A DNA stretch of 64,000 bases from a virus (IMGVR_UViG_3300044712_002337:82564-146563); one strand, 5' to 3'; counted from the stretch's first letter, positions 4,497 to 63,821 are shown. Notes: generated by a model not told the origin, from the sequence alone. Numbers and translations: made by a program.

Positions 4497-4537
4497 CTGG
4501 GCTTGTCAACGCGGCTAAAATTCACTATCTTATAAAA

Positions 4538-4948
4538 ATGCAAGACCTCGCCGGCCCGCCCCGCGTCCGCGTGTACCTGGACTCCACCCGGAAAGTCTGG
4601 TCCGTGACCCGCCGGGGGCGGGTGGCGGACAAGCCGCACCGCCTGCTCCTGGGGGACGTGCGGTTCGTGGTGAGCGAGCGGGCCAGGGCCCGCGCCCGGA
4701 AGACCGGGCGGAAGACCCCCCACGCGTACGTCGAGGGCGTGGTGCTCGGGCGGGACTGGTCGGCCCTGCGGCCCCGGGGCGGGCGGCGGTTCGGGTACAA
4801 CCCGTTCGTCCACCGGGGGTTCACCGACGGGGGCGGGCGAGTTCTGGAGGCCGCGAAGGCGGTCTACCTGGAAGTCGGCACGGGCGGGGTGACCTGTGTC
4901 GCGTTCCAGCCTAAAGGCCGGAAGCCGGCCGCCTGGAAGGCGCCCTGA
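4538..4948 (+). CDS. hypothetical protein
   Basis: ATG immediately abutted by CTATCTTATAAAAATG box; in frame of long ORF 3872..4948 whose upstream part is antisense junk. Confidence 0.45.
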   Translation: MQDLAGPPRVRVYLDSTRKVWSVTRRGRVADKPHRLLLGDVRFVVSERARARARKTGRKTPHAYVEGVVLGRDWSALRPRGGRRFGYNPFVHRGFTDGGGRVLEAAKAVYLEVGTGGVTCVAFQPKGRKPAAWKAP

Positions 4949-5000
4949 ACGAGGTGGAGCGGCTGCGGGCTCAGTTGAAAGCCCGAAGGGAGTTTAACTG

Positions 5001-5402
5001 ATGGATTCACAGAAAATGACGGTCGGCGGGCGGGAGATGTATGCCAAGCTGGCCAAGGTGACGGACGCCTGGTGCGGGCTGAACGAGCGGGGCTTCTTCG
5101 ACTGCTGGGTGTTCCTGGACTACGGCGGCTCCGCCCAGGGGTTCGGCGGGTACTGCCTGTCGCGGTACGACAAGGCGAAGGACCGGCAGGTCGGCACGGC
5201 GTGCGGCTTGGACTACGTGCTCGGCATCCTCCGGGCGTTCGGAGCGAGTAAGGTGGAGGACCTGAAGGGGCGGTTCGCGTACGCCCTGTTCGAGGACGAC
5301 AGCTGGAACTCGATGGTGAAGGGGCTGATGACCACCCCGCAGGAGGGCGGCAAGCACTTCCTCACCAGCGAGTGGCGGGAGGAGTGGAATCTGACCTCTT
5401 GA
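5001..5402 (+). CDS. hypothetical protein
   Basis: 133-aa ORF with balanced composition. Confidence 0.5.
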   Translation: MDSQKMTVGGREMYAKLAKVTDAWCGLNERGFFDCWVFLDYGGSAQGFGGYCLSRYDKAKDRQVGTACGLDYVLGILRAFGASKVEDLKGRFAYALFEDDSWNSMVKGLMTTPQEGGKHFLTSEWREEWNLTS

Positions 5403-5412
5403 GGGGGCGACC

Positions 5413-5967: not shown

Positions 5968-7200
5968 AAGATGTGAAGTCCACATAATTGGGTGTTTGAC
6001 GTGTACTTAACGGTTGATATCAGACTCATCGCAACGTCCGCCCAGGCGGAGTCGCTGGCCCGCACGGCGGTCGCCTTCGCCGCCGCCTGCGACCACGTGA
6101 GCGGGTACGCGTTCGAACACAAGCTATTCGGCCGGTTCGCCCTCCAGAAGGCGGTGTACCGCGACGTCCGGGAGAAGTTCGGCCTGTCCGCCCAGACGGC
6201 CTGCCTGGTCGTCGCCCGGGTGGCCGCCGCGTACAAGCGGGAGCGGGGCGTCCGCCACGAGTTCCGCCGGCCGACCGCCACCTACGACGACCGCGTCCTC
6301 GCCGTCGACCTCCCCGCCCGGACGGTCTCCGTCTGGACGGTGGACGGCCGCCTGAAGGGGGTACCGTTCGTCTGCGGGGCGCGGCAGGCCCGCCAACTGG
6401 AGGGCGAGCGGGGCGAGGCCGACCTGGTGTGCCGGGACGGGCGGTGGTACCTGCTGGTGACGGTGACCGCCCCGGAAAAGCCGCTCCGCCCGGCGACGGA
6501 CTACCTGGGGGTGGACCTCGGGGTGTACACCCTAGCGGCGGACAGCGATGGCGTCCGACACTCGGGCAAAGCGGTCAAGAGCGTCCGCCACCGCCACCGG
6601 CGGCTTCGCCGCAAACTCCAGAAGAAGAACACCAAGTCGGCCCTGCGGCGACTTCGCTTGCTGGCCGGGAAAGAAGGAAGGTTCGCTACCCATGTAAACC
6701 ACGTGTTGTCGAAAAAGTTGGTCTCGGTCGCCGAACGCACCGGCCGCGGGATTGCCCTGGAGGACCTCCGGGGTATTCGCGGGCGGATCAGGGCTAGCAG
6801 GGCGACGCGGGCTCAGCTCCACTCCTGGGCGTTCGCCCAGCTCCGGTCGTTCATCGCCTACAAGGCCGCCCTGGCGGGCGTCCCAGTGGCGGTGGTGGAC
6901 CCGGCGAACACCTCTCGCGCGTGCGCCGCTTGCGGGCACTGCGAGAAGGCCAACCGCCGCGGACGAGAGTTTCTTTGTCGCTCGTGCGGTTTTACCGCCG
7001 ACCCCGACACCAACGCGGCGGAGAACATCCGTCGGGCCGCAGTAAACCGGCCGAACGCCTGGAACGGCTCCGCCGTGGCCGGGTAAAGCTCATGACAAAA
7101 ACCTTGGGCGTTTACGTGGCCCGACTTGTCAACGCAGGGCTTATGAGTGACGGAGTAATAGTCACTCCAAGGCTACCACTTGAGAAGAGGATTAGGGGTC
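5968..7200 (+). mobile_element. IS200/IS605-family (IS1341-like, TnpA-less) element carrying tnpB copy 1; boundaries approximate
   Basis: TnpB ORF with subterminal hairpins (ATGTGaagtcCACAT upstream; GAGTGACggagtaatagTCACTC downstream, candidate omega-RNA region). Confidence 0.5.
5992..7086 (+). CDS. tnpB: TnpB (OrfB) RNA-guided nuclease, IS200/IS605 family
   Basis: RuvC-I GVDLG, RuvC-II ALEDL, C-terminal CxxC..CxxC zinc finger and RuvC-III DPDTNAAENI. Confidence 0.85.
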   Translation: MFDVYLTVDIRLIATSAQAESLARTAVAFAAACDHVSGYAFEHKLFGRFALQKAVYRDVREKFGLSAQTACLVVARVAAAYKRERGVRHEFRRPTATYDDRVLAVDLPARTVSVWTVDGRLKGVPFVCGARQARQLEGERGEADLVCRDGRWYLLVTVTAPEKPLRPATDYLGVDLGVYTLAADSDGVRHSGKAVKSVRHRHRRLRRKLQKKNTKSALRRLRLLAGKEGRFATHVNHVLSKKLVSVAERTGRGIALEDLRGIRGRIRASRATRAQLHSWAFAQLRSFIAYKAALAGVPVAVVDPANTSRACAACGHCEKANRRGREFLCRSCGFTADPDTNAAENIRRAAVNRPNAWNGSAVAG

Positions 7201-9894: not shown

Positions 9895-10130
9895 AAACCG
9901 TTAAATGGCACACGCAGGAGTACCACGTGCTCGGGCACAACTGGTACGCCCGGCACGTCGAGCGGACCGGCACCTGGCGGCTGTACTACGGGACGAACGC
10001 CAAGGGGTCGGACGTGCCCGGGTACCTGAAGGCGTTCCGCGAGGGGGGCGAACTGGTCGCCCTGCCCACCCTGGCCGCCTGCCGCGAGTACGTCCAACTG
10101 CGGGCCCGGCCCGCGAAGGCGGGCCGATGA
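9891..10130 (+). CDS. hypothetical protein, tandem paralog B
   Basis: TTG start overlapping TGA of paralog A; TVKWHTQEYHVLGHNWYAR...RLYYGTNAKGSDVPG. Confidence 0.4.
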   Translation: MKTVKWHTQEYHVLGHNWYARHVERTGTWRLYYGTNAKGSDVPGYLKAFREGGELVALPTLAACREYVQLRARPAKAGR

Positions 10131-10393
10131 CCGACACCCAGACGGAGTACTACCTGTACCTGCTCAAGCACGTCGAGGACCACGGGTACCAGCCGAGCTA
10201 CAAGGAGATGGCCGAGGTGTTCGGGGTCACCCCCAAGTCGGTGAAGGACATCTTCCTCAACCTGGAGGCCCAGGGCGTCCTGGAACTCGGGGACTATCGA
10301 CAGGAGCGGTCGATTCGGCTAAAAGGGGTGAAGTTCTGGGCGTACGACGCCCGCCTGTCCCGCCCCCCGTGCCCGAAGTGCGAGAACGCATGA
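10127..10393 (+). CDS. LexA-like winged-helix DNA-binding protein (no peptidase domain)
   Basis: ATGA overlap; YLYLLKHVEDHGYQPSYKEMAEVFGVTPKSVKDIFLNLEAQGVLEL matches LexA N-terminal wHTH pattern. Confidence 0.45.
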   Translation: MTDTQTEYYLYLLKHVEDHGYQPSYKEMAEVFGVTPKSVKDIFLNLEAQGVLELGDYRQERSIRLKGVKFWAYDARLSRPPCPKCENA

Positions 10394-10816: not shown

Positions 10817-10846
10817 GGGGGGCGAAAGCCCCCTTGTTTTTTACCG
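10817..10846 (+). terminator. intrinsic terminator
   Basis: GGGGGCgaaaGCCCCC followed by TTGTTTTTT. Confidence 0.6.
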
Positions 10847-10854
10847 CCACACAC

Positions 10855-10951
10855 CTATCTTATAAAAATGTGGGGACACCCCACAGCCCCCGCGGGCCGG
10901 TGGCCCGCATGTTAAAAGGGGAAACACACTTCCCGCGAGCGGAGCGAGCCC
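10855..10951. repeat. full-length cassette: CTATCTTATAAAAATG + 2 hairpins + ATGTTAAAAGGGGAAACAC + CGCGAGCGGAGCGAGCCC + ATG
   Basis: hairpins near-identical to copy at 1683. Confidence 0.65.
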
Positions 10952-14375: not shown

Positions 14376-15445
14376 TTCGCCAATATACCCCCTGGGTGGC
14401 GACCAACCAGAAGAAGTATGTCAACGACTGCCTGGACGAGAACTACCTGAGTCACCGCGGGAAGTACGGGAAGCTCTTCGAGGCCGGCCTCGCGGCCGCC
14501 GCCAAGAGGAAGCACGCCGCCCTCACCGGCAGCGGCACGGCCGCCCTGTTCGCCATGTACTACGCCGAAGGGCTGGTGGGGAAACGGGTCCTGGCCCCGA
14601 CGCTCACGTACGCGGCCACGATAAATCAGCTGATTTTAATAGGTGCGACGCCGGTGCTCGTGGACTGCGACGAGCGGCACCAGATGGAGATTAACCAAGT
14701 GCGGGAGGGGCTCGCCCGGGGGTTGGCGGACGCGGTGGTGGTCGCCCCGCTCTACGGCGACGCCCCCAACATGCTCGCGTTCGAACTCGCCTGCCACGAC
14801 TTCGGCGTGCCCCTGCTCGTCGACGGGGCCCAGGCGTTCGGAGCCGACTGGAACGGACGTCCGGTGCTCAGTTATGGCCGCTCGGCCACCCTGTCCTTCT
14901 TTGCCGGGAAAACGCTCGGGACGGGGGAAGGCGGGTGCGTGTTCACTGACGACGAGGAGGTCGACCGCCGCGCCCGCGACGCGGTCAACCACAACACCTA
15001 CACGAATTACCGGCACGGCAGCCCGTACTGCACCAACTCGCGGATGACCAACCTGCAGGCGGCGGTCGGGCTGGCCCAGTTGGAGGACGCCCCCGCCATC
15101 CTGCAGAACAAGCGGCGGGTTCATACCGAGTACGCCCGCCTGCTCCCGGCCGCGGTCCTCCGCCCCCGCACGGGTCTGGCCTGGGTGAACGTCGTCCGGG
15201 TGAAGCCGGGACTCACGTACGCGGAGGTCGAGGCGGTCGCAAGAGCGGCCGGCGTGGAACTCCGCCCGATGTTCGCCCCCCTGCACACCCTGCCCGGGTA
15301 CGCCTCGCGGGTGGACACCCCGTTCCCCCTCCGGGCGAGTGAGGTGGCGGCCGCCACGCACGTCAGCCTGCCGAGCGGGCCGACCCTGACCGCGGAAGAA
15401 ATCGGCCGGGTGGCGGACGCGGTACGGCCGTTCCTGGTTGACTAA
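14372..15445 (+). CDS. DegT/DnrJ/EryC1/StrS-family PLP-dependent sugar aminotransferase
   Basis: SGTAAL and SFFAGKTLGTGEGG (PLP lysine region) motifs; ATGA overlap start. Confidence 0.75.
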   Translation: MIRQYTPWVATNQKKYVNDCLDENYLSHRGKYGKLFEAGLAAAAKRKHAALTGSGTAALFAMYYAEGLVGKRVLAPTLTYAATINQLILIGATPVLVDCDERHQMEINQVREGLARGLADAVVVAPLYGDAPNMLAFELACHDFGVPLLVDGAQAFGADWNGRPVLSYGRSATLSFFAGKTLGTGEGGCVFTDDEEVDRRARDAVNHNTYTNYRHGSPYCTNSRMTNLQAAVGLAQLEDAPAILQNKRRVHTEYARLLPAAVLRPRTGLAWVNVVRVKPGLTYAEVEAVARAAGVELRPMFAPLHTLPGYASRVDTPFPLRASEVAAATHVSLPSGPTLTAEEIGRVADAVRPFLVD

Positions 15446-15494
15446 AACTTGTCTATCTTATAAAATAACCGGACACCCCGCGAGCGGAGCGAAC

Positions 15495-15755
15495 ATGAGC
15501 ATCGCCGCCGACTGCCTGGACCTGGACCACAGCTTCGCCGACTGGCTGGTCCCCAGGCTCCGCCACCTGGCCTGTGACACCGACTGCTACCCGGAGGAGG
15601 TGGGCTCGCTGGAGAACTGGCAGCGCCTCCTGCACCGGATGGCCGACGGGTTCGCGCCGGTCGCCGTCGGGCACGAGCTGTCGCTCGCCGAGGGCGTCGC
15701 CCTGGACGAGGCCCTCGACCTGTTCCGGAAGCACTTCCGGGACTTGTGGCTGTAG
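15495..15755 (+). CDS. hypothetical protein
   Basis: ATG preceded by CTATCTTATAAAATAAC box and GCGAGCGGAGCGAAC leader. Confidence 0.4.
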   Translation: MSIAADCLDLDHSFADWLVPRLRHLACDTDCYPEEVGSLENWQRLLHRMADGFAPVAVGHELSLAEGVALDEALDLFRKHFRDLWL

Positions 15756-19633: not shown

Positions 19634-20233
19634 GTGACGGAGCGAGACGCCTTCTTGGCCGCCATCCGGGCGACGCCCGACGACGACCTGCCCCGTCTTG
19701 TGTTCGCCGACTGGTTGGACGAGAACGGGCAGCCGGACCACGCAAGAGCCATCCGACACTACATCCACCGCCGCACGGTCCACACGAGTGCGGCGGGGTA
19801 CCCCGCCGAGTTGTGGTTGTTGGAGGGGGAAGACGGGTGGGCCAAGGAGATTGCTCCGGCTGTCCCGGGGGTGGCGTACACCGTCCGCCGCGGGTTCGTC
19901 AGCGGCGTCGAATGCCGGTGGGCTGACTGGTTCGGCTGGCCATGCTCATGCGAGGCTCGCGACCGGCGGTGCGATGGCGGGTGTACGGGCGGACGCATCG
20001 GCCGCGGTCCCGAATTGGTGAGGACCCACCCGATTGAGCGGGTCCGTTTTAGTGATGTCACCCCGCTCTCCGTTCACAACCCCACCGGCCCTCCGTACTG
20101 GACCCAGGGGCTGTACCCGCATTTAGTCCCGTGGGGGTACGCCCCGCTCACCTTCGAGAGTCCCGAGGCGGCGGAGGAGGCCACCTCCCGGCAGGCGCTG
20201 GCCTGGGCGCGGGGGCACCCCCCTTGTACTTAA
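19634..20233 (+). CDS. TIGR02996-type repeat-companion domain protein (paralog 2)
   Basis: MTERDAFLAAIRATPDDDLPRLVFADWLDENGQPDHARAIR; GTG preceded by TGTGAGCGGAGCGAACA. Confidence 0.55.
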   Translation: MTERDAFLAAIRATPDDDLPRLVFADWLDENGQPDHARAIRHYIHRRTVHTSAAGYPAELWLLEGEDGWAKEIAPAVPGVAYTVRRGFVSGVECRWADWFGWPCSCEARDRRCDGGCTGGRIGRGPELVRTHPIERVRFSDVTPLSVHNPTGPPYWTQGLYPHLVPWGYAPLTFESPEAAEEATSRQALAWARGHPPCT

Positions 20234-20251
20234 TATTTTTAGCAGTATAAT
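20224..20251 (+). promoter_or_regulatory. sigma-70-like promoter for excisionase gene (near-leaderless)
   Basis: TTGTAC -N16- TATAAT; start codon about 9 nt downstream of -10. Confidence 0.5.
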
Positions 20252-20259
20252 TACGGCTA

Positions 20260-20544
20260 GTGACATCCCACTGCCTAGACCTGTTGGCCGAGACGGTCCT
20301 CACCCTGCCCCAGGCGGCGGCGGTGCTGGCGGTCGACGCCGCCACCGTCGGGCGGTACGTGCGGGCGGGCCGGCTGGAGGGGGTGCGGGTGGGCGGGCGG
20401 TGGAAGACCAGCCGGGAGGCGGTCGCCCGGTTCCTGGCCGGCACCCAGCCGCGGGCGAAAGCCGACCCGCCCGCCCGGACGCCCGCCGGCCGCCGCGGGG
20501 AGAAGGCCCTCGCCCGGCTGCGGGCGATGGGGGTGAAGGTCTAG
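20260..20544 (+). CDS. excisionase-like / AlpA-type HTH DNA-binding protein
   Basis: LTLPQAAAVLAVDAATVGRYVRAGRLEGVRVGGRWKTSREAV winged-helix pattern; divergent from integrase. Confidence 0.5.
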   Translation: MTSHCLDLLAETVLTLPQAAAVLAVDAATVGRYVRAGRLEGVRVGGRWKTSREAVARFLAGTQPRAKADPPARTPAGRRGEKALARLRAMGVKV

Positions 20545-23072: not shown

Positions 23073-23175
23073 TCGCTCCGCTCACGTTTCGGGTCTGGGG
23101 CGCAACCCCAGGGGGTGTGGGGTGCAACCCCAGGGGGTGTGGGGCAAAGCCCCACATGTTAAAAGGAGGAAGTCA
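23073..23175. repeat. cassette on minus-gene strand: TGA-CTTCCTCCTTTTAACA + 3 hairpins (22-nt tandem) + GTGAGCGGAGCGAACGC + ATG
   Basis: between TIGR02996 paralogs 4 and 3. Confidence 0.6.
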
Positions 23176-23893
23176 TCCGGGCCTCCGCCAGCAGCTCGGC
23201 GCTCAAGGCCGCCCGCGCCGCCCCGGGGGACTCGAACGACTCGGTGAGGCACCTCGGGCTGGTTGCCCCGGCCATGAAAATCCTCCCAATCCCCCGCGGG
23301 GCGTTCTCGCGGACAGGCACCAGGAAGACTCGGTCTCCCATCCGGTGGGTGGCGATATCGGTGACGTCCACTTTGGTGGCAAGCGGGTAGGACGGGAGAT
23401 TTTTCCGCAGCCAATCCAGCCGCCCCTTCACCCGGTCGACGAACCCGCGGGCGAACGTCACGCCGGCCGCCCCGTCGTGACCGAAGTTGCCGCAGTACGT
23501 CGCCACCCGCCCCGACCAGTCGTGCCAGTTCCGTTCGAGCAGGTCTCGCTCGCGGGAGAGCAACGCCCGCACCTCCCCGCCGAGCGGCCGGATGTTCGGG
23601 CCCGTCATCGGGGCGTTGTCGCAGCACTGTTCGCACTCCGCCGAACAGAGCGACCACCCCTTGTCCTCCGGCCACTCCACCCAGAGGGCGCCGCACGCCG
23701 CGCACGAGTGGGTGGGTGCGGGGGCTCCGTACGGTAGCACGACGCCGCGGCGGTGGAGCTCGACCTGGACGCGGGCGAAGTCCGCCCTTTCCCCCTCCCC
23801 GGTCTCGTCCAAAAAGTCGGCGTACACCAGGCGGGGCAAATCGTCGTGCGGACGTGCCACAATGGCGGCCAGGAGGGCGTCGGAGTCCGTCAT
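23159..23893 (-). CDS. TIGR02996-type repeat-companion domain protein (paralog 4), Cys-rich
   Basis: MTDSDALLAAIVARPHDDLPRLVYADFLDETGEGERADFARV; internal ATG chosen. Confidence 0.55.
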   Translation of the reverse strand: MTDSDALLAAIVARPHDDLPRLVYADFLDETGEGERADFARVQVELHRRGVVLPYGAPAPTHSCAACGALWVEWPEDKGWSLCSAECEQCCDNAPMTGPNIRPLGGEVRALLSRERDLLERNWHDWSGRVATYCGNFGHDGAAGVTFARGFVDRVKGRLDWLRKNLPSYPLATKVDVTDIATHRMGDRVFLVPVRENAPRGIGRIFMAGATSPRCLTESFESPGAARAALSAELLAEARMTSSF

Positions 23894-24037
23894 GGTTCCC
23901 TTTACCACACGGCCGGCGTTCCGCCCGGCCCGGAAGTTTTCGCCCGGCTAAAAAGCACCTTAAAAAACCGACTCCAGCCGCTTTTTTAAGATACCGCACC
24001 GGCCCGGTGTTGGTTAGTATGGGAGCGTGAACTCCCG

Positions 24038-26395: not shown

Positions 26396-27640
26396 ACGAC
26401 CGCCGGCTTCAGCCGGCGGCTTTGTGCCTCAGCGGTCTGGGCACTGATATGGGTGGTTTACGGCACCCCTAGCCGCGATGTTGCGCGCGGCGTTCTGGTC
26501 GGCGTGGGCGGCGTGCCCGCACGACGTACAGGAGAAGCGGTCTTGGGACTTCCGGCTCGCCTTGTCGATGTGCCCGCAGGCGAAGCACGTCCGCGACGTG
26601 TTGCGGGGGTCCACCGCCACCAGCGGCACCCCGGCCAACTTCGCCTTGTAGGTGAGGCAGTGCCGGAGGTGGTGGAACGCCCAGTTGGACAGCCGGGAGC
26701 GGTGCCGCGTGCGAACCGTTTTCTCCGTCCTGGTGCGGACGCCGTTGAGGTCTTCGACGGCGATACCCACGCCCAGACGGAGTGCCTTGGCGACAACCGT
26801 TTTGGAGATGCGGTGGTTCTCCCCCTTTTGGTAACGGGACTGCTTACCGGCGAGCGCCTTCAGCCGCCGCTTGGCGGACTTGGTTCCCCGGCGTTGGAAG
26901 CTTTGACGGGCCTTCAGGTGCCGCTTGCGGTGGCGTTCCACGTCCGCCCCGGTGTGCCGCTCGCCCTCGGAATCGGTGAGGACGTTGGCGATGCCCAAAT
27001 CCACCCCGAGGAAGGCCGACACCTCGGCGGCGGGCGGTTCGGGCACGTCGGCGGTGCAGTACAGGAAGAACTTCCCCCCGCGGTACACCAAGTCGGCCTG
27101 CCCCTTGAGGGCGTGCAGCGTGCCCGTGAAGTAGTCGCCGGCCACGTAGGGCACCAAAATCCGCCCGCCCATCGTGAGCAGGCTCACCCGGTCGACGCCC
27201 TTGAAGGAGAACGTCCGCTGGTCGTAGGTGACAGCCCCCAGGGGTTTGAACACCGGGCACTGGGTCTTGTCGCGGGCGAAGCACTCGACCGCCTTGCCGA
27301 TGGCGCGGACGGCGGTCTGCGAGGACACGCCGAACGTGTCCCGGAGGGCGCGGTAGCAGAGCTTGTGGATGGACGGCTGGGAGAACACCCGGTTCTCAAA
27401 CCCCACCCGCGCCGCTTCGGTGGCGGCGGCGTTGAAGGCCCGCATGTACGCGAGCAGGGCTGGCGCTTGCCCGGCGTCCGGCAGCAGTTTGATTTGCACG
27501 ACGAGTTTCACGACGGCATTTTAGGATGCCGTTTGTCCGTAATCAACCCCGGAGAGCGGCTTACCTCTGTCGCCTGAAGGCGACAGTCTCACGCCGCGAA
27601 TTTATGAGAGCGGGCTGTCGCCCGCATGTTAAAAAGGAAA
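26396..27640 (-). mobile_element. IS200/IS605-family element carrying tnpB copy 3; boundaries approximate
   Basis: 5' subterminal hairpins CTGTCGCCttcaGGCGACAG and GGCATcctaaaATGCC; 3' hairpin GCCGCCGGCTgaaGCCGGCGG. Confidence 0.5.
26429..27511 (-). CDS. tnpB: TnpB (OrfB) RNA-guided nuclease, IS200/IS605 family, copy 3
   Basis: GVDLGIANV, AVEDL, CFACGH...CTSCG zinc finger, HADQNAARNI. Confidence 0.85.
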   Translation of the reverse strand: MKLVVQIKLLPDAGQAPALLAYMRAFNAAATEAARVGFENRVFSQPSIHKLCYRALRDTFGVSSQTAVRAIGKAVECFARDKTQCPVFKPLGAVTYDQRTFSFKGVDRVSLLTMGGRILVPYVAGDYFTGTLHALKGQADLVYRGGKFFLYCTADVPEPPAAEVSAFLGVDLGIANVLTDSEGERHTGADVERHRKRHLKARQSFQRRGTKSAKRRLKALAGKQSRYQKGENHRISKTVVAKALRLGVGIAVEDLNGVRTRTEKTVRTRHRSRLSNWAFHHLRHCLTYKAKLAGVPLVAVDPRNTSRTCFACGHIDKASRKSQDRFSCTSCGHAAHADQNAARNIAARGAVNHPYQCPDR

Positions 27641-34575: not shown

Positions 34576-34603
34576 ATATTAACTGTTTTTATAAAGTAGT
34601 CAA
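34576..34603 (-). promoter_or_regulatory. sigma-70-like promoter driving the tRNA-like RNAs / downstream operon
   Basis: minus strand TTGACT -N16- TAATAT. Confidence 0.5.
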
Positions 34604-38622: not shown

Positions 38623-39177
38623 GGCGGGCAGGTACCGCTTCACCTCCGCCAGCACGTCGACGACGCAGAACGTGCCGTCCGGGCGGAGGTCTCCCCGCCG
38701 ACAATTCCAGGGACGTGGAACCAACACCGCACACCCGCCCCGCTTGCGGAAGGCGTCCACGTTGTCGTCGTGGTCGTCGACCAGGATGTTGTCCGGGCCG
38801 GCGGCGGCCGCCTTGCCCCCGCCCAGGAGGGCCCGGCGGGCGAACTGCGGCCCGACCTCCCGGCGGAGCCAGTCCCGCTTACCGGCTTCACACCCGTCGG
38901 TGGCGCACGGGCTGGACAGGGCGGTGACGTTCTCCTCCCCGACCAGATGGACCAGCCCGTGGAAGAGGGCCTTCCCCTCCCGGGTCCAGGGCAGGTTCGC
39001 CCAGAACTCCCGCCCCATCGGGGCCCAGAAGTCGGCCTGCCGGCCCTGGAACCCGATTTGCTCGAAGAAGTCCCAGCGGACGTCGAGGTACGGGACGGAC
39101 GCCCCGTGCAGGGCGAAGGCCGCCTCGGTGAACGAACACTTGACCCCGTCCATGTCGAGCAGGATGTGCTTGTGCAT
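38620..39177 (-). CDS. HAD-family 5'(3')-deoxyribonucleotidase-like
   Basis: motif I LLDMDGV, motif IV ILVDDHDDNV. Confidence 0.6.
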   Translation of the reverse strand: MHKHILLDMDGVKCSFTEAAFALHGASVPYLDVRWDFFEQIGFQGRQADFWAPMGREFWANLPWTREGKALFHGLVHLVGEENVTALSSPCATDGCEAGKRDWLRREVGPQFARRALLGGGKAAAAGPDNILVDDHDDNVDAFRKRGGCAVLVPRPWNCRRGDLRPDGTFCVVDVLAEVKRYLPA

Positions 39178-39215
39178 GGGGGTATTCTAGCCGAGGATTA
39201 GTTTTTGTAAAGTAG

Positions 39216-42994: not shown

Positions 42995-43315
42995 TCACTC
43001 CATCAGCCGCCGAATCCCGTCCGTCAGCCCGACCGCCTCGAAGTCGGACCTGTGCCGGTCGAAGAACGCGGCCGCCACCCCGGCCAGCCGCTCCGCCTGC
43101 TCGTGCGAGCGGTGGGCCATGGGGGAGGCGGACGCGAGGGACTTGCCGTCCGAAGACAGGACCGCCTCCCCGCCCCGGAGGGACGCCAGGACGGCGTCCA
43201 CGACGTCGCCGGCGGGCACCCCCACGTAGGCCATCAGCCGCTGGTAGGCGGCCAGCGACACCGGGGACGGGTGCCCGCGGAGGAGGTCGGACAGGGTGGC
43301 TCGGGGGTCGACCAT
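42995..43315 (-). CDS. hypothetical protein
   Basis: 106-aa ORF. Confidence 0.45.
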   Translation of the reverse strand: MVDPRATLSDLLRGHPSPVSLAAYQRLMAYVGVPAGDVVDAVLASLRGGEAVLSSDGKSLASASPMAHRSHEQAERLAGVAAAFFDRHRSDFEAVGLTDGIRRLME

Positions 43316-43357
43316 GTTTTTATAAGATAGGTGTTATTCGGGCGGGCGTCAAGGGGG

Positions 43358-50584: not shown

Positions 50585-51037
50585 CTAGTCGAGGTCGTGG
50601 AACACGGACGCCTTGCGGGCCGACGGCGGCGGGGCCTGGGGGCCGCATTTCGGCGGGTCGGGAGCAGGCGCCGGCGGAGGCGGTAACGGGGTCGTCGGCT
50701 CCGCCTCCCAGTTCCCTCGGGCTTTCAACAGGGTGGCCCGCTTGGCGACCGCCTTCATCAGCGGGGGCGAGCCGAGGGAGTACCCCCAGTTGAACTCTTT
50801 GTCTTTTAAGAGGGATATTAACGGCTCATGCCCGTAGTCCTTGACCATCCCGTTCGCGTACGTCACCTGCTGGCGGAAGAACTTGAGCCACCTGGCCTGC
50901 TTCCAGAACTGCGGGGGGAGCGGGCCGAGCCCCTCGGCGGCGGCCCGCCGCTCGCACATCCGCTCGGCCGCCCACTGGGCGGCGGTCACCTTCTTGTCGG
51001 TGTACTTGCTGTCGAAGCGGGGGGACTTGGTGGCCAT
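50585..51037 (-). CDS. hypothetical protein
   Basis: 150-aa ORF. Confidence 0.45.
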   Translation of the reverse strand: MATKSPRFDSKYTDKKVTAAQWAAERMCERRAAAEGLGPLPPQFWKQARWLKFFRQQVTYANGMVKDYGHEPLISLLKDKEFNWGYSLGSPPLMKAVAKRATLLKARGNWEAEPTTPLPPPPAPAPDPPKCGPQAPPPSARKASVFHDLD

Positions 51038-51096
51038 GGGGGCATGTTACCACGCCCCGCCGGGAAATCAATACTCGTAATTATACTAATTACGTT

Positions 51097-53558: not shown

Positions 53559-53603
53559 GGGGCCCGCCGAAGTCAATTTTTTAAAAGGGTGAATTAACCT
53601 TCA
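53559..53603. repeat. cassette: CCCCaccGGGG + CAATTTTTTAAAAGGGTGAATTAACC abutting RNR stop Confidence 0.5.
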
Positions 53604-55865: not shown

Positions 55866-56016
55866 CACTGTTCCTTGGCTCGGGGCGGCGGACCGGAATC
55901 GGCGAGGTGCTAGTACCCCCGGCGGAGACGGGTATTGTACAGGTTTTTGTAAAATAGAAAAGGCCACCCGGAGGCGGCCCCGTCCCCTTTTCCTCGCCCC
56001 GCCCGTAGGCCGGGCG

Positions 56017-57979: not shown

Positions 57980-58768
57980 TCAGCCCCCGATGCGGTCGAG
58001 GATGGAAATGAGTTCGGCGGGGGTGGCCGGGGCCGGCCCCTCGTACAGCACGGCGTTGGTGGCCAGGTCGACCAGGTACAGTTGCGGGAGCGTCTTCCCC
58101 TTCGCCCGGTCGACGTACGGCTTCAGCTTGTCCGGCGTCGTCTTCGTCACCGGGTCCTTGACGTTCTGGTCGACCACGACGGGGGCCGCGTGCCCCTTCG
58201 CCTTCCACCGCTCGGCCAACGCTTTGTCGGTGAAGAACTCGGCCCGCTTGGCGGTGGCGTCGGCCGTCTCCTCCACCACCACCGCCTTCAGCTTGACCGC
58301 CCGGGGGGCGGGCTTCGGGTCGACCACCGGCGGCTTCCCCTTGCCGTCGTCCGGGGGCGGCTCGCCGGCGTCGGCGTACAGCGTCCGCCGCACCACCTCC
58401 GCCTCCCCCTTCAGCCCGACCGGGGCGACCAGGAGTTCCACCCGCCCGGTGGCCGCCGCCTCCACCGAGTAGACGAACTTCCCCTTGTACTCCCGCGTCT
58501 CCGTCTTCCCGCCGCCGTCCACGAACCGCCCGCGGACGCGGAGCGGCCCCGGCTCGGCCGTCACCCGCACCAGCCCCTTCGGGCTGGACAGGACCACCAG
58601 CTCGACGTCCGAGTCGAGCATGTACAGCCGGTCGGGGGCCAGCTTGGGCACCACCGCCGGGGCGGCCGGCTCGGCCGGGCAGTCGGCCGGCAGGCGGACC
58701 GGCGGGTCGGCGGCGGCCGCCGCCCCCACGGCCAGGACGAGGGCCAGCGGCCCGAACCAGTTACGCAT
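57980..58768 (-). CDS. hypothetical secreted protein
   Basis: signal peptide MRNWFGPLALVLAVGAAAAA. Confidence 0.45.
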   Translation of the reverse strand: MRNWFGPLALVLAVGAAAAADPPVRLPADCPAEPAAPAVVPKLAPDRLYMLDSDVELVVLSSPKGLVRVTAEPGPLRVRGRFVDGGGKTETREYKGKFVYSVEAAATGRVELLVAPVGLKGEAEVVRRTLYADAGEPPPDDGKGKPPVVDPKPAPRAVKLKAVVVEETADATAKRAEFFTDKALAERWKAKGHAAPVVVDQNVKDPVTKTTPDKLKPYVDRAKGKTLPQLYLVDLATNAVLYEGPAPATPAELISILDRIGG

Positions 58769-59297
58769 GAGTCTCGGTCTCCTCGGTATGGAGCTCCGCC
58801 ACTTCGCGGAGCTTGGCCAGCCCCTGGCGGAGCAGGCGGGCGAACACGTTCTTCCCCACCCCCAGCTCGGCCGCCGCCTCCCGGCGGGTCTTCCCCTCCA
58901 GGAACACCTTGGTGACCGCCGCCCGCTGGGCGGCCGGCAGGCACCCCCGCACCCACCCGGCCACCCGCCCGACGGCCGCCGCGTGGGCGGGGGCGGGGGG
59001 CGGGGGCGGCTCGGCCGGGCGGTCGAGCAGCAGCCCGGCCGGCACCGGGGCGCGGGCGTACGCCTTGGCCAGGGAGGCGAGCCGCTTCTTCAGGAAGAAG
59101 CGGACGGTGCTGGTGAACTTCTGCCCGCCGTCCCGGTGCCCCTTCACCGCCCGCCGCACCGCCTCGTACCCGGCGCTCTCCACGTCGTCCGGGTCGGCCC
59201 AGGCGGTGGCCCGGTGGTAGTACCGCAGCAGCCGGGCCACCGCCGGGCGGGCCAGGGCGGCCTCCACCGACCGCGGGTTGGTCAGTTCCTCATCCAC
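58761..59297 (-). CDS. ECF-type sigma-70 family sigma factor
   Basis: region 4 VTKVFLEGKTRREAAAELGVGKNVFARLLRQGLAKLRE. Confidence 0.6.
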   Translation of the reverse strand: MDEELTNPRSVEAALARPAVARLLRYYHRATAWADPDDVESAGYEAVRRAVKGHRDGGQKFTSTVRFFLKKRLASLAKAYARAPVPAGLLLDRPAEPPPPPAPAHAAAVGRVAGWVRGCLPAAQRAAVTKVFLEGKTRREAAAELGVGKNVFARLLRQGLAKLREVAELHTEETETHA

Positions 59298-60706: not shown

Positions 60707-61003
60707 TCAGAGGCGGACGGCCCGCGGCCCGACCGCCGGCCCCGACTCCCGGGCGTGCCCGGCCACGCCCCACAGGTGGTCGACGCTGTCGGCCAGCCGC
60801 CCGTCCCCGAATTTCTCCCCGACGGCCGCCAGCAGGCGGGCCAGCTTCGGGTTCCAGTCGGCCAGGCTCTCCATCAGCCGGCCGAGGTCGCGGGCCGACC
60901 CGCCGGGCGGGAGCACCAGGCGGGCCGTGTACCCGTCCGCGTCGGCCTCGAACACGACCGCCGGCTTGGCGGGCTCGGACGGGGGGCGGGGGAAGGGCCA
61001 CAT
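60707..61003 (-). CDS. hypothetical protein (leaderless candidate)
   Basis: ATG 6 nt downstream of TAAAAT. Confidence 0.4.
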   Translation of the reverse strand: MWPFPRPPSEPAKPAVVFEADADGYTARLVLPPGGSARDLGRLMESLADWNPKLARLLAAVGEKFGDGRLADSVDHLWGVAGHARESGPAVGPRAVRL

Positions 61004-61009
61004 GTTACT

Positions 61010-61038
61010 ATTTTACAGAAACCAGGCCGAAGAGTCAA
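61010..61038 (-). promoter_or_regulatory. sigma-70-like promoter, leaderless arrangement
   Basis: minus strand TTGACT -N17- TAAAAT -agtaac- ATG. Confidence 0.5.
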
Positions 61039-61040: not shown

Positions 61041-61072
61041 CCTCCCCGGGCCCGCGGGGCGTCCGATTTATT
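61041..61072. repeat. cassette: CCCGCGGG + GATTTATTTTAAAAGGGTAAAATATCA abutting minus-gene stop Confidence 0.5.
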
Positions 61073-61654
61073 TTAAAAGGGTAAAATATCATCTGGGGCT
61101 CCGCCCCAGCCCCCAGACGGCGGCGGGCCCCCGCCCCCGCCGAACAGGTCGAGCAGCAGCAGCCCGAGCGGCAGCTCGTGCAGGTGGTCGACGCGGGTGA
61201 ACACCGGGCCGAGCAGGTCCGCCCCGCGGTACAGCCGGCAGGCGGCGTTCCCGCTCGGGGAGGTGACCTCCCGCACGCCCTCGGTCCGCTCGAAGAACGC
61301 CTTGAACCGGCCCGTCGGGCACACCCACACCTCGTCCCCGAGCACGTAGCACCACAGGTCGGAGGTGGACGCCGCCAGGCCGGTCGGGACACCTTTCTTG
61401 GGGTTACTATGTTCGACCGCGAGATTACCCGTCGACTGGAACCTCACATCGAACTTGATTTCCGCCTTCCGCCACACGCCCCCGACCTGGAACAGGACGT
61501 CGTTCGTGCGGCACTCGGACACCCGCACCGGGACGGCCCGCTGGAGCACCTGCAGGAGCCGCTGCTCGCCTAGCTTGCCGTAGGCGAGGTCGCGGACGAA
61601 CCCGCCTTTGGATTCCGAGCGAACTCGCGGAGTTCGGACGCCGTTTTTAGCCAC
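61073..61654 (-). CDS. hypothetical protein
   Basis: 193-aa ORF; start uncertain. Confidence 0.4.
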   Translation of the reverse strand: MAKNGVRTPRVRSESKGGFVRDLAYGKLGEQRLLQVLQRAVPVRVSECRTNDVLFQVGGVWRKAEIKFDVRFQSTGNLAVEHSNPKKGVPTGLAASTSDLWCYVLGDEVWVCPTGRFKAFFERTEGVREVTSPSGNAACRLYRGADLLGPVFTRVDHLHELPLGLLLLDLFGGGGGPPPSGGWGGAPDDILPF

Positions 61655-62724
61655 GTGTGCTTCCTGGCGAACAGGGGGCCGAGGGGATTGGGGGTGTACG
61701 AAGAAGGAGAAGTCCGGTACCGCTCGTACTCGCCGCGGAGGGCGGCCGCGGCGGCGTCCAGCTCGTCATCCGCGCATTCGTACCAGCCGGCTTCCCCGGT
61801 GTACGGGATGAACGGCGGCTCCCGCATCGGGGCGTGCCGCGACGCCTTCAGCATGAACGCCCCGGCCTCGGGCCCGTACTCGTGCCCCGAGTTGTCGCTC
61901 ATGAAAACGCGGCCGCCCACGGCGGCCACTTCGGCCGCCTCCAGGTTCCACCCCTCCGCCCGGGCGGGGAACAGGCCGACCTGGGCCCGCCTCATGAGCG
62001 AGGCGAGTTCGCCCTGCGTTTGGAACCGGGTCGCGGACACGTGGACCTTTCCGGCCCGGCCCATCGGCGACCGCGTCGCCCACTTCCCCCACTGCCGCGA
62101 GACGTCCGGGCCGTCGAACCCGGGGGCCTTGAGCCAGTTGTGCGAGTGCATCACCAGCAAGGCGTCGTCGTCCGGCCGGAACGCCCGGTTGAAAATGTCG
62201 ACCACCTGGTCGCACCCCTTGCGGACCTCCCACTTGCCGGCAAACAGGACGACGAAAGTGGAGTCCGCGACCCCGGGGAGAGCGGCCGGGGTGACGCCGG
62301 GGTGAAAGATGGCTGTGTCTACACCGGGCCGGACCACGGCGACCGGGACGGTCACCCCGCTGTCCCGCAGCACCTTCTCCGCCCACCGGGTGGGGACCGC
62401 CACCCCGTCCAGCGTGTTGAGACCGCGGGCGCGGTCCCCGGGGAGTCGGTCGAGTTCGAAGAAGGTGTAGAGGACCCGGGGCCCGTTGAGGCCCCGGAGG
62501 GGGCTCAGGTCGAAGTCGTGCCACACCAGCAGGGTGGGGTCTTCGGGGTCCGGCTCCGGCAATTGCCCCAGCAGGTGTTCGAACTCGTCCGCGTACTCCC
62601 CCGACAGGTCCGGCTCGTGGACGCACCGGAACGCGAAGGGTTCCCCGAGCTGGGCGAGGCCGCGGAGGACGCCCTTCCCCGTCTGGCCGAATCCTGTGGA
62701 ATTTAAACAGGTCACCAAATTCAC
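61570..62724 (-). CDS. glycosyltransferase family 1 (GT4-like)
   Basis: EGWNLEAAEVAAVGGRV; GTGA overlap with upstream stop. Confidence 0.6.
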   Translation of the reverse strand: MNLVTCLNSTGFGQTGKGVLRGLAQLGEPFAFRCVHEPDLSGEYADEFEHLLGQLPEPDPEDPTLLVWHDFDLSPLRGLNGPRVLYTFFELDRLPGDRARGLNTLDGVAVPTRWAEKVLRDSGVTVPVAVVRPGVDTAIFHPGVTPAALPGVADSTFVVLFAGKWEVRKGCDQVVDIFNRAFRPDDDALLVMHSHNWLKAPGFDGPDVSRQWGKWATRSPMGRAGKVHVSATRFQTQGELASLMRRAQVGLFPARAEGWNLEAAEVAAVGGRVFMSDNSGHEYGPEAGAFMLKASRHAPMREPPFIPYTGEAGWYECADDELDAAAAALRGEYERYRTSPSSYTPNPLGPLFARKHTWLKTASELREFARNPKAGSSATSPTAS

Positions 62725-63797
62725 TGGAGATAACCCTCCAGAAATCGTTCCGCGACGTCCCATTTTCGCCTCAGACGATGTGGGACCGTTGCTTTGTGAT
62801 TATGCAGGGGGAAAAGAAAACCACGAGCTTTGTTATGAGTAGCAGACATTTTGAATGTAAGGCCATCTTTACAATCACTACGTCTACAAATTGAGTATTT
62901 TTGACCGCTCACGAGAGACATCCATTCAAGCATCGGACGCGTGCCAGTTATCGAGACCACTGGGTACTCATATCCGGTCTTCTTGTTCCGGGCGAACGAT
63001 ATGGTGCCGTCACCGTCAATAAAACCGGTGATAAAAGAAAGCGAGCAGTCACGGTCAAGGTGTTTCGGTGGCCGGAGCGTGAGACTTTTGGCTGGCGTTA
63101 TAAAGTAGTTATTTTTTAGGTCATCAACCATTTGCTGCGATGCGAATGAGATGGAGTTCTCAATCGTGAACCCGCGGTCGCGATTCAAGATTTTGCACGT
63201 GTGACCGATTTCAGCACGGAGCTTTTCCAGCGGCTCAATTTCACGCTGATAGAAAGTGACGTTATTCTTATAAATACTGCCATCGGCAGCTAGAAAACCG
63301 GCCCAGTAGCTGTTAACCGAATTCGGAATTGAAAAGTAGGCCTCGTTGAACGGAGTGAGTCTACGGTTCGTGACGTGACGATTAGCCTTCAAACCTCGCA
63401 TAGCGGCTTGGTAGGCGATGGCGTAAGGCGTCCTAGCTGGTAGTAGTTTGACGAGTTCTTGCTTCTTGACTTTACCGTAATAAGCATCGAGTGTATTCAA
63501 CTCTTCTACTGTCCAAACCCCCAATCGTGAGCACCCACAGGATAGCCACTTACAGTTGTCAGCGCGAATACCACTTAAGCACGGATTACATACGTTTCCG
63601 CAGTCACAAACACACTTCCATCGGAAGTTCGTTGTACCGGGGATACTCTCACGTCCACCCGGAAGACAAGTAAGTTTTCCGTACCGCTTATTCGAGTGGT
63701 CGACTGGTTTACGGGCCATGGTGATGAGCTTGCCGAGCGAACCGGCGAATTGCCGAATCGTCTCTCGAACGCTACTACCCCAGCCAGAGTAGTTCAT
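62721..63797 (-). CDS. LAGLIDADG homing endonuclease (two-motif) with N-terminal Cys-rich zinc-binding region
   Basis: YWAGFLAADGSIY and FITGFIDGDGTISF; CVCDCGNVCNPC; GC content drops sharply across this gene. Confidence 0.7.
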   Translation of the reverse strand: MNYSGWGSSVRETIRQFAGSLGKLITMARKPVDHSNKRYGKLTCLPGGRESIPGTTNFRWKCVCDCGNVCNPCLSGIRADNCKWLSCGCSRLGVWTVEELNTLDAYYGKVKKQELVKLLPARTPYAIAYQAAMRGLKANRHVTNRRLTPFNEAYFSIPNSVNSYWAGFLAADGSIYKNNVTFYQREIEPLEKLRAEIGHTCKILNRDRGFTIENSISFASQQMVDDLKNNYFITPAKSLTLRPPKHLDRDCSLSFITGFIDGDGTISFARNKKTGYEYPVVSITGTRPMLEWMSLVSGQKYSICRRSDCKDGLTFKMSATHNKARGFLFPLHNHKATVPHRLRRKWDVAERFLEGYLQ

Positions 63798-63821
63798 AGG
63801 GCTTATAAAGTAGAAATTATT

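What the first reader, a model, noticed from the sequence alone, without database searches (positions are those of the whole stretch)
4523..63815. TTATAAAA box abutting start codons: candidate leaderless genes
A second AT box, CTA(T/C)(C/T)TTATAAAA(T), recurs at 4523 (immediately followed by ATG 4538), 10855 (followed by a 15-codon mini-ORF running through the hairpins), 15454 (with TTGACT 17 nt upstream), 23985 (minus strand, GGTATCTTAAAAAAG upstream of paralog 4), 34585 (minus strand, inside a TTGACT-N16-TAATAT promoter) and 63798 (minus strand, CTACTTTATAAGCCCT-ATG of the homing endonuclease). Clear sigma-70-like promoters place the -10 only 6-9 nt before the start codon at 20246 (xis) and 61010 (gene 60707..61003). 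These arrangements imply leaderless mRNAs for a subset of genes.
Basis: partly seen in the sequence, partly recalled or inferred. Interest (0 to 1): 0.55.

Follow-up and report, generated by a model that had tools for sequence, protein, structure and literature searches.

The report
AT-rich phage promoter box, leaderless genes
A 13-base AT-rich box recurs in the gene-free gaps of an uncharacterised high-GC phage, always overlapping ordinary bacterial-type promoters. At two of its copies, and at five or six other promoters without the box, the promoter sits flush against a start codon, so those genes are probably translated from leaderless mRNAs, a known arrangement rather than a new mechanism.

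Summary
The box is real. CTAYYTTAYAAAA occurs 7 times in the window and 9 times in the 72.5 kb of the source contig I could read. Every copy is intergenic and co-oriented with the downstream genes; shuffles give 0 expected. It is not a start-codon element. Only 2 of 9 copies abut a gene start (ATG 4538; ATG 43315, 2 nt away). One copy lies in the promoter of a tRNA-Met gene. Three precede SD-led genes with 20-65 nt leaders. The "mini-ORF" at 10868 is a -26 kcal/mol 5' hairpin. The sites at 23985 and 63798 are degenerate.

Each copy overlaps a sigma-70/sigma-A-type promoter, but in at least three registers: as the -10 hexamer TATCTT plus discriminator, as the end of the -35 plus the spacer, or as a TTTACA -35.

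The leaderless idea holds up, largely without the box. Five genes show -35/N16-17/TANNNT/N6/ATG-or-GTG exactly (4538, 27511, 39177, 51037, 61003) and three more show N5 or N8. None of the eight has an SD, against 72% of all genes. Distant relatives show the same geometry.

No transcription start site data exist and the host is unknown. Why 13 bases are conserved across registers is unexplained; a dispersed operator is the main rival. This is a new member of a known kind.

The parts
4525..4537 (+). Box A, CTATCTTATAAAA. Bases 2-7 (TATCTT, 4526-4531) serve as the -10 hexamer and the rest as an AT-rich discriminator.
4503..4540 (+). Promoter A: TTGTCA-N17-TATCTT-N6-ATG. The ATG at 4538 starts the L5-gp82-like gene 4538-4948. 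An overlapping alternative, GTGACT-N17-TAAAAT (4493-4521), would give a leader of about 10 nt with no SD.
   Evidence: The same start was called in the source assembly. Pfam and PHROG alignments begin at residues 7-9.
10855..10867 (+). Box B. It follows an intrinsic terminator (10817-10842) and has TTGTTT 16 nt upstream of TATCTT.
10868..10885 (+). ATG of the 15-codon 'mini-ORF'. Its bases are part of the hairpin TGTGGGGACACCCCACA, so it is a 5' stem-loop of a long leader rather than a gene start. The real gene starts at 10952 and has an SD.
15438..15466 (+). Promoter C: TTGACT-N17-TAAAAT. Box C (15453-15465) fills the spacer and most of the -10. Gene 15495-15755 follows with GAGCGGAGCGAAC-ATG, so it is leadered and SD-led.
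34576..34603 (-). Promoter D: TTGACT-N16-TAATAT. Box D (34587-34599) supplies the last 2 nt of the -35 and most of the spacer. It drives tRNA-Met 34487-34556.
43313..43352 (-). Promoter E: TTGACG-N17-TATCTT-N8-ATG, with box E at 43318-43330. ATG 43315 starts gene 42995-43315. The predicted leader is 0-2 nt.
   Evidence: The N-terminus MVD is shared with the orthologue in L104, where the gene is SD-coupled instead.
55934..55961 (-). Promoter G: TTTTCT-N16-TACAAT after a terminator (55981-55960), with box G at 55945-55957. It drives the ribonucleotide reductase gene 53601-55865 through a leader of about 65 nt that has an SD.
39175..39215 (-). Promoter H: box H (39203-39215, CTACTTTACAAAA) supplies the -35 TTTACA, followed by N16-TAGAAT-N6-ATG 39177. 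It drives gene 38620-39177, a deoxyribonucleotidase-like protein.
   Evidence: The PHROG alignment starts at residue 1-2.
61001..61038 (-). Box-less leaderless-type promoter: TTGACT-N17-TAAAAT-N6-ATG, preceded by a terminator-like hairpin (61109-61093). It drives gene 60707-61003.
51035..51071 (-). Box-less leaderless-type promoter: TTGATT-N16-TAACAT-N6-ATG. It drives gene 50585-51037.
27509..27546 (-). Box-less leaderless-type promoter: TTGATT-N17-TAAAAT-N6-GTG. It drives the TnpB gene 26429-27511.
   Evidence: The N-terminus aligns 1:1 with the other TnpB.
20224..20262 (+). TTGTAC-N16-TATAAT-N8-GTG. It drives the excisionase-like gene 20260-20544 and has no SD.
23982..23994 (-). Degenerate match, GTATCTTAAAAAA. 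It lies 88 nt upstream of the SD-led gene 23159-23893 and is not start-proximal.
63801..63813 (-). Degenerate match, CTACTTTATAAGC. It lies in the low-GC LAGLIDADG gene region, inside the ORF as called from GTG 63827.

Best explanation
The box is the shared AT-rich core of a small family of strong promoters read by the host RNA polymerase with its housekeeping (sigma-70/sigma-A-type) sigma factor. These promoters drive early or replication-type transcription units: DNA polymerase III, ribonucleotide reductase, SSB, tRNA-Met and sugar-modification genes.

In the CTATCTTATAAAA subfamily, TATCTT is the -10 hexamer, ATAAAA is an easily melted discriminator, and transcription starts at the first base after the box. 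Where a gene's ATG sits at that base (4538), or 2 nt later (43315), the mRNA has no leader and no Shine-Dalgarno sequence. It would then be translated by direct ribosome binding to the 5'-terminal AUG. Elsewhere the same box lies further upstream in the promoter and the transcript is leadered or non-coding.

Leaderless expression is a general habit of this phage that does not depend on the box: at least five further box-less promoters have the same -10/N5-N8/start-codon geometry.

Shown here: the motif, its positions, the hexamers and their spacings, the absence of SD, and the validity of the start codons. Inferred: promoter activity, the transcription start sites, and leaderless translation.
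For: - **Motif statistics.** All 9 copies are intergenic and co-oriented with transcription, with 0 expected.
- **Independent promoter scan.** The scan found 11 sigma-70-like sites in 55 kb against about 2.2 expected. These include the sites at boxes A, C, D, E and H and at 27546 and 61038. My own scan found 28 sites against 13.7 +/- 3 in shuffles.
- **Distance from -10 to the annotated start.** It is exactly 6 nt at 4538, 27511, 39177, 51037 and 61003, 5 nt at 67434, and 8 nt at 43315 and 20260. TANNNT starts peak at offset -12, with 5 cases against a mean of 0.9 per offset.
- **SD absence.** None of the 8 candidates has an SD-like core, against 84 of 116 genes overall.
- **Terminator then promoter.** Boxes B and G and the 61003 promoter each follow a terminator-like hairpin, so transcription probably restarts there.
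- **Start codons.** They are supported by the source assembly's gene calls, by Pfam and PHROG N-terminal alignments, by the 1:1 TnpB alignment, and by the shared MVD N-terminus in L104.
- **5' ends.** The predicted 5' ends of the candidates are no more structured than average, unlike the mini-ORF at B.
- **Relatives.** Phages with about 51% PolIII-alpha identity show the same geometry. L102 has TTGACT-N16-TATCAT-N6-ATG before PolIII-alpha. L100 has two copies of TTGACTATTTC(C)AAAAA, each 28 nt before an ATG.
Against: - No transcription start sites are available, and the host is unknown, so its ability to translate leaderless mRNA is assumed.
- The box occupies at least three registers relative to the best -35/-10 pairs (about -13..-1, -30..-18 and -38..-26). 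Four copies are identical over 13 of 13 nt. That is more conservation than a sigma hexamer needs, and it is not explained by shared flanks.
- Other leaderless-type promoters have GC-rich discriminators, so ATAAAA is not a general requirement.
- Site A has an overlapping alternative promoter that would give a leader of about 10 nt.
- There is no terminator upstream of A or E, so read-through transcripts in which these AUGs are internal probably also exist.
- The box is not found in the relatives or in any high-GC contig of IMG/VR.
Confidence: 0.6

Rival explanations
1. The box is an asymmetric operator for a phage-encoded (or host) DNA-binding protein that sits on many dispersed promoters. It would work like the 13-mer operators and 'stoperators' of the mycobacteriophage L5 repressor, or like the scattered C1 operators of phage P1. 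Binding anywhere between about -40 and +1 would occlude RNA polymerase. That would explain why the register varies while the 13-mer is conserved.
For: - Four copies are identical over 13 of 13 nt and five more are near-identical, with unrelated flanks.
- The box lies in at least three registers relative to the -35/-10 hexamers.
- All 9 copies are co-oriented with transcription, as reported for L5 sites (PMC9283540).
- The phage has an integrase and an excisionase, so it needs a repressor.
- Candidate small HTH proteins exist, for example the LexA-like wHTH protein 10127-10393 just upstream of box B.
Against: - No repressor has been identified and no binding data exist.
- Every copy coincides with a plausible promoter, and none sits alone inside an operon as a pure 'stoperator'.
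- The box itself contains TANNNT and TTTACA, so sigma can use it directly.
- Another promoter module (AGTATAATTACG) is also conserved beyond its hexamer, so extended identity may simply reflect promoter cassettes.
Confidence: 0.25
2. The box is the recognition element of the phage's own sigma-like protein (58761-59297), or of a polymerase modified by the phage. This would give a second, temporally distinct start point about 1 nt after the box at all nine sites, overlapping the host-type promoters.
For: - The phage encodes a 178-aa protein with a C-terminal sigma-70 region 4.
- Box bases 2-7 fit TANNNT at all nine sites, and base 14 is A at 7 of 9.
- TATAAAA resembles the T4 late promoter TATAAATA (from my own knowledge).
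Against: - A sigma that retains region 4 should need a -35 element at fixed spacing. Only A, B and E have one, and it is the ordinary TTGNNN.
- Sites D, F, G, H and I have good host-type hexamers in other registers.
- The sigma-like protein is not related to T4 gp55, and only its region 4 is detectable.
- The much more abundant 'first AT box' is an equally good candidate target.
Confidence: 0.08
3. The box acts at the RNA level on read-through transcripts. It would be an unstructured AU-rich patch in a GC-rich mRNA that allows SD-independent internal initiation at the adjacent AUG (4538, 43315), or that serves as an RNase E-type processing site.
For: - There is no terminator between the upstream genes and boxes A and E, so polycistronic transcripts are likely.
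- These two genes lack an SD.
- AU-rich single-stranded RNA is the usual RNase E target and a known translational enhancer (from my own knowledge).
Against: - Seven of 9 copies are not next to a start codon, and one precedes a tRNA.
- Near-consensus -35 hexamers at correct spacing (TTGTCA, TTGACG, TTGACT) would be unexplained.
- Boxes B and G follow terminators.
Confidence: 0.05
4. There is no common function. The copies are chance similarity among AT-rich promoter regions in a GC-rich genome.
For: AT-rich hexamers are needed at any promoter, and intergenic DNA is more AT-rich (63% GC) than the genome (69%).
Against: One thousand shuffles of the intergenic DNA produced no match, against 9 observed. 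Four copies are identical over 13 nt.
Confidence: 0.02

Closest known systems
Leaderless genes of Actinobacteria (about 14% of annotated genes in Mycobacterium smegmatis and M. tuberculosis, PMC7148126). From my own knowledge: also Deinococcus, lambda cI transcribed from PRM, and several mycobacteriophage repressor genes.
   Same: A -10 of the TANNNT type ends 6-7 nt before an ATG or GTG. There is no Shine-Dalgarno sequence, and the start codon is the first base of the predicted transcript. A -35 of the TTGACN type lies 16-17 nt upstream.
   Different: No transcription start sites have been mapped here and the host is unknown. Two of the eight cases share a 13-nt box that has no counterpart in those systems.
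Mycobacteriophage L5 / Cluster A repressor sites (13-mer asymmetric operators and stoperators; PMC9283540, PMC6550527)
   Same: A 13-nt asymmetric motif in many copies, found in promoters and short intergenic gaps, with orientation tied to the direction of transcription, in a temperate phage.
   Different: The sequence is unrelated and AT-only. There are only 9 copies in 72 kb, and all are at promoter-like sites. No cognate repressor has been identified. The box itself carries usable -10 and -35 hexamers.
Start-associated sequences (SAS) of Cluster K mycobacteriophages (PMC3203893)
   Same: A short asymmetric repeat in one orientation, in the non-structural part of a phage genome, sometimes immediately before an ATG.
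   Different: SASs lie 3-7 bp before nearly every associated start codon and contain the SD core AGGAG. This box has no SD and abuts a start codon in only 2 of 9 cases. The better SAS analogue in this phage is a different repeat, GYGAGCGGAGCGAAC.
Phage T4 late promoters (TATAAATA read by gp55) and phage P1 C1 operators (both from my own knowledge)
   Same: An AT-rich motif of 8-17 nt repeated across a large phage genome at transcription start regions.
   Different: No gp55 or C1 homologue was found. The geometry at 4538 requires the start site to be at or before the base after the box, which does not fit a TATAAATA-type -10 centred on TATAAAA.

Membership tests
sigma-70/sigma-A-type promoter | A -35 hexamer close to TTGACA | tested here: met
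   The hexamers are TTGTCA (A), TTGACG (E), TTGACT (C, D, F, 61038), TTTACA (H, I) and TTGATT (27546, 51071). They are weak at B (TTGTTT) and G (TTTTCT).
sigma-70/sigma-A-type promoter | A 16-18 nt spacer and a -10 with A at position 2 and T at position 6 | tested here: met
   All listed sites have N16 or N17 and TANNNT. The scan found 11 sites against about 2.2 expected.
sigma-70/sigma-A-type promoter | Transcription initiates 6-8 nt downstream of the -10 | not testable with these tools
   This needs 5'-end mapping or in vitro transcription.
leaderless gene | The transcription start site coincides with the first base of the start codon | not testable with these tools
   Only the geometry is available: the -10 ends 6 nt before the ATG or GTG at 5 genes, and 5 or 8 nt before it at 3 more.
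leaderless gene | No Shine-Dalgarno sequence upstream of the start codon | tested here: met
   None of the 8 candidates has an SD-like core in -18..-4, against 84 of 116 genes overall.
leaderless gene | The codon next to the promoter is the true N-terminus | tested here: met
   It is the first start codon in the ORF for 27511, 39177, 43315, 51037 and 61003. It matches the source assembly's calls, the family alignments, the 1:1 TnpB alignment and the L104 orthologue. No homologue evidence exists for 51037 or 61003.
leaderless gene | The host translates 5'-terminal AUG/GUG efficiently | not testable with these tools
   The host was not identified. There are only weak hints of an actinobacterial affinity.
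L5-type operator/stoperator | An asymmetric 13-mer in many intergenic copies, oriented with transcription | tested here: met
   There are 9 copies, all intergenic and all co-oriented.
L5-type operator/stoperator | Bound by the phage immunity repressor | not testable with these tools
   No repressor has been identified. Only candidate HTH proteins exist.
L5-type operator/stoperator | Copies inside operons, away from promoters, that block elongation | tested here: inconclusive
   Every copy overlaps a promoter-like site. Boxes A, C and E lie between co-directional genes with no terminator, so both readings fit.
Cluster K start-associated sequence | Lies 3-7 bp before the start codon of nearly every associated gene | tested here: not met
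   Only 2 of 9 copies are within 2 nt of a start codon. The others are 20-85 nt away or precede a tRNA.
Cluster K start-associated sequence | Contains the SD core | tested here: not met
   The box contains no G at all.
T4-type late promoter | TATAAATA as the sole element, read by a gp55-type sigma | tested here: not met
   The phage's sigma-like protein shows only region 4 and no gp55 match. A -10 centred on TATAAAA would place the start site inside gene 4538-4948.

The most novel reading that the evidence does not exclude
The 13-15-nt asymmetric box (CTAYYTTAYAAAA followed by A/T then C/T) is not a sigma element. It is the binding site of one phage regulator that sits on about ten dispersed promoters of a roughly 176-kb temperate phage in whatever register they offer. 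That would be a single-factor master switch of the L5-stoperator or P1-C1 kind, but with an AT-only site in a 69% GC genome. Alternatively, it is the specificity element of the phage's own divergent sigma-like protein.
Probability: 0.3. Interest if true: 0.5.

Novelty: new member of a known kind. Interest (0 to 1): 0.3.

Why it matters
The phage lineage is unstudied. The genome is about 176 kb and 69% GC, and I found no close relative in the phage, IMG/VR or JGI collections searched. The result gives a first transcription map for it. That map contains about a dozen housekeeping-type promoters, of which seven or eight are predicted to make leaderless mRNAs, including those for an excisionase, a TnpB and a nucleotidase.

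It predicts that the host is proficient in leaderless translation, which narrows the host search. It also gives a small, cleanly testable set of sites for 5'-end mapping.

The result corrects the idea that the AT box is a start-codon signal. It leaves one real open point: why a 13-mer is conserved in several promoter registers. Beyond that, leaderless genes and conserved phage promoter modules are well known, so the general interest is modest.

Tried and rejected
- **Close relatives, to test conservation.** Megablast against phages found nothing. Protein-seeded scans of IMG/VR and JGI metagenomes found only relatives with 41% identity or less and low GC. The large protein search found relatives at 50-58% identity. 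Their contigs L100, L102 and L104 lack the box.
- **Exact-pattern scans of IMG/VR.** TTGACTAYTTTAYAAAAAC and CCTATCTTATAAAAA matched only single copies in contigs of 35-51% GC, which I take as chance.
- **Host identification.** TnpB homologues are spread over many phyla at 50% identity or less. tblastn against phages was uninformative. Accession searches in the literature found nothing. The host stays unknown.
- **Known RNA families.** Rfam found no family in the window.
- **Archaeal TATA box.** I rejected this because the replication genes are bacterial-type (DnaE, DnaB), SD sequences and a sigma-like gene are present, and -35 hexamers sit at sigma-70 spacing.
- **T4-late-type -10 on TATAAAA.** I rejected this because the start site would fall inside gene 4538-4948, whose N-terminus is supported by family alignments.
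- **Mini-ORF at 10868 as a leaderless peptide gene.** I rejected this because its AUG is buried in a -26 kcal/mol hairpin.
- **One fixed register for all nine boxes (box bases 2-7 as the -10).** This cannot be excluded. It is disfavoured because D, F, G, H and I have much better hexamer pairs in other registers and no -35 in that one.
- **Reach of the source contig.** Only 1-72,575 of its 95,375 bp could be reached. The JGI contig of 176 kb that carries the identical polymerase could not be reached.

Full report
**What the window is**

The window is 69% GC and has no nucleotide match among 50,697 phage records. It encodes:
- a DnaE-type polymerase split into two genes, one with an HNH intein;
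- DnaB, primase and RecA;
- a class II ribonucleotide reductase and ThyX;
- a tyrosine integrase with an adjacent excisionase;
- two TnpB genes and a tRNA-Met;
- a small sigma-like protein.

It comes from a 95,375-bp Logan contig of run SRR26046407, and window position equals contig position minus 1,572. A protein identical to its polymerase is also recorded on a 176-kb JGI contig. I could read contig positions 1-72,575. Genes run rightward up to about 20.5 kb and leftward from about 29 kb.

**Checking the observation**

TTATAAAA occurs 6 times against 0.01 expected. CTAYYTTATAAAA with up to 2 mismatches occurs 17 times against 0.12 expected.

Exact copies lie at 4525, 10855 and 15453 on the + strand and at 34599 and 43330 on the - strand. 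Allowing one T-to-C change (TTTACAAAA) adds 39215 and 55957 on the - strand. Two more copies lie just outside the window, at 67987 (+) and about 67399 (-).

All nine copies fall in the 11.8% of the sequence that is intergenic. One thousand shuffles of the intergenic DNA gave none. All nine point the same way as the genes downstream. The first is 88 nt from an SD-led start. The second lies inside the LAGLIDADG ORF as called in the source assembly.

**Where the box sits**

The built-in promoter scan found 11 sigma-70-like sites in 55 kb against about 2.2 expected. Boxes A, C, D, E and H are among them. My own scan agrees.

The register differs between copies:
- **A (4503-4540):** TTGTCA-N17-TATCTT-N6-ATG.
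- **E (43352-43313):** TTGACG-N17-TATCTT-N8-ATG.
- **B:** TTGTTT-N16-TATCTT, directly after a terminator.
- **C:** TTGACT-N17-TAAAAT, using the 3' end of the box.
- **D, F and G:** the box supplies the last two bases of the -35 and most of a 16-nt spacer (TTGACT-N16-TAATAT, TTGACT-N16-TATGAT, TTTTCT-N16-TACAAT).
- **H and I:** the TTTACA inside the box is the -35 (N16-TAGAAT, N17-TAGACT).

The box therefore marks promoters but is not a fixed sigma-contact element.

**What lies downstream**

Only A (0 nt) and E (2 nt) abut a gene start. D drives tRNA-Met. C, F and G drive genes with 20-65-nt leaders and clear SD sequences. B is followed by ATG, but that ATG is the foot of a -26.4 kcal/mol hairpin, against a gene mean of -10.9 with sd 4.8. 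The real gene starts 84 nt later with an SD. The box is therefore not a start-codon signal.

**The leaderless inference**

This inference stands largely without the box. The distance from the end of the -10 to the annotated start is:
- exactly 6 nt at 4538, 27511, 39177, 51037 and 61003;
- 5 nt at 67434;
- 8 nt at 43315 and at the excisionase GTG 20260.

Across 116 genes, TANNNT starts peak at offset -12, with 5 cases against a mean of 0.9 per offset. None of the eight candidates has an SD-like core, whereas 84 of 116 genes do.

The start codons are credible:
- They are the first available in their ORFs for five of the genes.
- They match the source assembly's gene calls.
- Family alignments begin at residues 1-9.
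- The two TnpB proteins align 1:1 from residue 1.
- Gene E shares its MVD N-terminus with the orthologue in L104, where that gene is SD-coupled instead.

The 61003 promoter follows a terminator-like hairpin, so its transcript probably starts there. Predicted 5' ends are not unusually structured.

Relatives at about 51% polymerase identity show the same architecture. L102 has TTGACT-N16-TATCAT-N6-ATG before its polymerase gene. L100 has two copies of CAATTGACTATTTC(C)AAAAA, each 28 nt before an ATG.

This is the geometry described for leaderless genes in mycobacteria, where about 14% of genes are leaderless (PMC7148126). From my own knowledge it is also found in other Actinobacteria, in Deinococcus, and in lambda cI.

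**What remains unexplained**

Four copies are identical over 13 nt and five more are nearly so. Their flanks are unrelated and their promoter registers differ. Box-less leaderless promoters have GC-rich discriminators, so ATAAAA is not a general need.

Two readings fit. The first is a family of promoter cassettes kept for strength. A second module, AGTATAATTACG, is likewise conserved beyond its hexamer. An AT-rich TATAAAA-like spacer is also shared with relatives. The second reading is an asymmetric operator for a dispersed regulator, as in L5, where 13-mer sites lie in promoters and intergenic gaps and follow the direction of transcription (PMC9283540).

The phage's sigma-like protein is a weaker candidate reader. 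An RNA-level role, as an AU-rich SD-independent initiation site or a processing site, could add to A and E but cannot explain the other seven copies.

**Comparison and verdict**

The finding is a member of known kinds: housekeeping-type phage promoters and leaderless genes. It fails the defining features of Cluster K start-associated sequences (PMC3203893), because it has no SD core and is not start-proximal. It also fails those of T4 late promoters. It meets the descriptive but not the biochemical features of L5-type operators.

The box was absent from relatives and from high-GC viral contigs, so it looks lineage-specific.

Interest is modest at 0.3. There is roughly a 30% chance that the box is a dispersed regulator site, or the target of the phage's own sigma-like protein, which would be somewhat more interesting.

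Noticed in passing
window, 20 sites, e.g. 1721+, 10908+, 13305+, 19587+, 30159+, 38602+, 42594+, 52388+, 2829-, 7552-, 32802-: The 'first AT box', [CG]AT[GT]TTAAAAGG, occurs 20 times, always next to G4-5/C4-5 hairpins and in both orientations relative to transcription. In sense orientation it carries the SD (TTAAAAGGAGAAAACC-ATG at 1721). In antisense orientation it follows stop codons. Its function is unclear.
   Followed up: partly
window 534+, 10937+, 12624+, 15482+, 15809+, 19620+, 23083-, 30939-, 42022-, 42922-, 56430-: A 13-15-nt repeat, GYGAGCGGAGCGAAC, lies 0-4 nt before at least 11 start codons. It keeps its flanks even where the GGAG core is mutated (GAAG, GAGC, GCAG, GTCG). It looks like an analogue of the Cluster K 'start-associated sequences' (PMC3203893).
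   Followed up: partly
window 51076-51094 and 20244-20255: A perfect 19-bp palindrome, CGTAATTAGTATAATTACG, lies immediately upstream of the leaderless-type promoter of gene 50585-51037. It shares AGTATAATTACG with the excisionase promoter. It is a plausible dimer operator.
   Followed up: no
window 39595-41616 (-) and 34692-37190 (-): The DnaE-type polymerase III alpha is split into two genes separated by five small genes. The second gene carries an HNH-type intein. The split is conserved in relatives L100, L102 and L104.
   Followed up: partly
window 6001-7086 (+) and 26429-27511 (-): There are two TnpB (IS605 OrfB / Cas12f-like) genes, 42% identical. The second has a leaderless-type promoter with a GTG start.
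   Followed up: partly
window 58761-59297 (-): A 178-aa protein has a C-terminal sigma-70 region 4 and no detectable region 2. It is possibly a divergent phage sigma factor, and its promoter target is unknown.
   Followed up: partly
outside the window, window-equivalent 66647-67433 (L091 3571-4357): A 787-nt stretch has no called gene. It is bounded by back-to-back promoters: box I reading leftward and TTGATT-N16-TATCAT-N5-ATG reading rightward into a 92-aa gene. It could be a regulatory or origin region, or a non-coding RNA.
   Followed up: no
window 62721-63827 (-): A LAGLIDADG homing-endonuclease gene sits in a low-GC patch (58% against 69%), as expected for a recent mobile insertion. Several box-like AT strings there are probably compositional.
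   Followed up: no
L100 7690-7727 and 13555-13599: A relative phage (NCBI JAWVHA010000244.1, 176 kb, 58% GC) has its own repeated CAATTGACTATTTC(C)AAAAA. Both copies lie exactly 28 nt before an ATG and resemble the TTGACTAYTTTAYAAAAAC module of this phage.
   Followed up: partly
window 25335-26186 (+): A D12-class N6-adenine DNA methyltransferase lies in the mixed-orientation region next to the integrase. Several AT-rich promoter-like islands lie nearby (24057-24090, 25289-25320).
   Followed up: no
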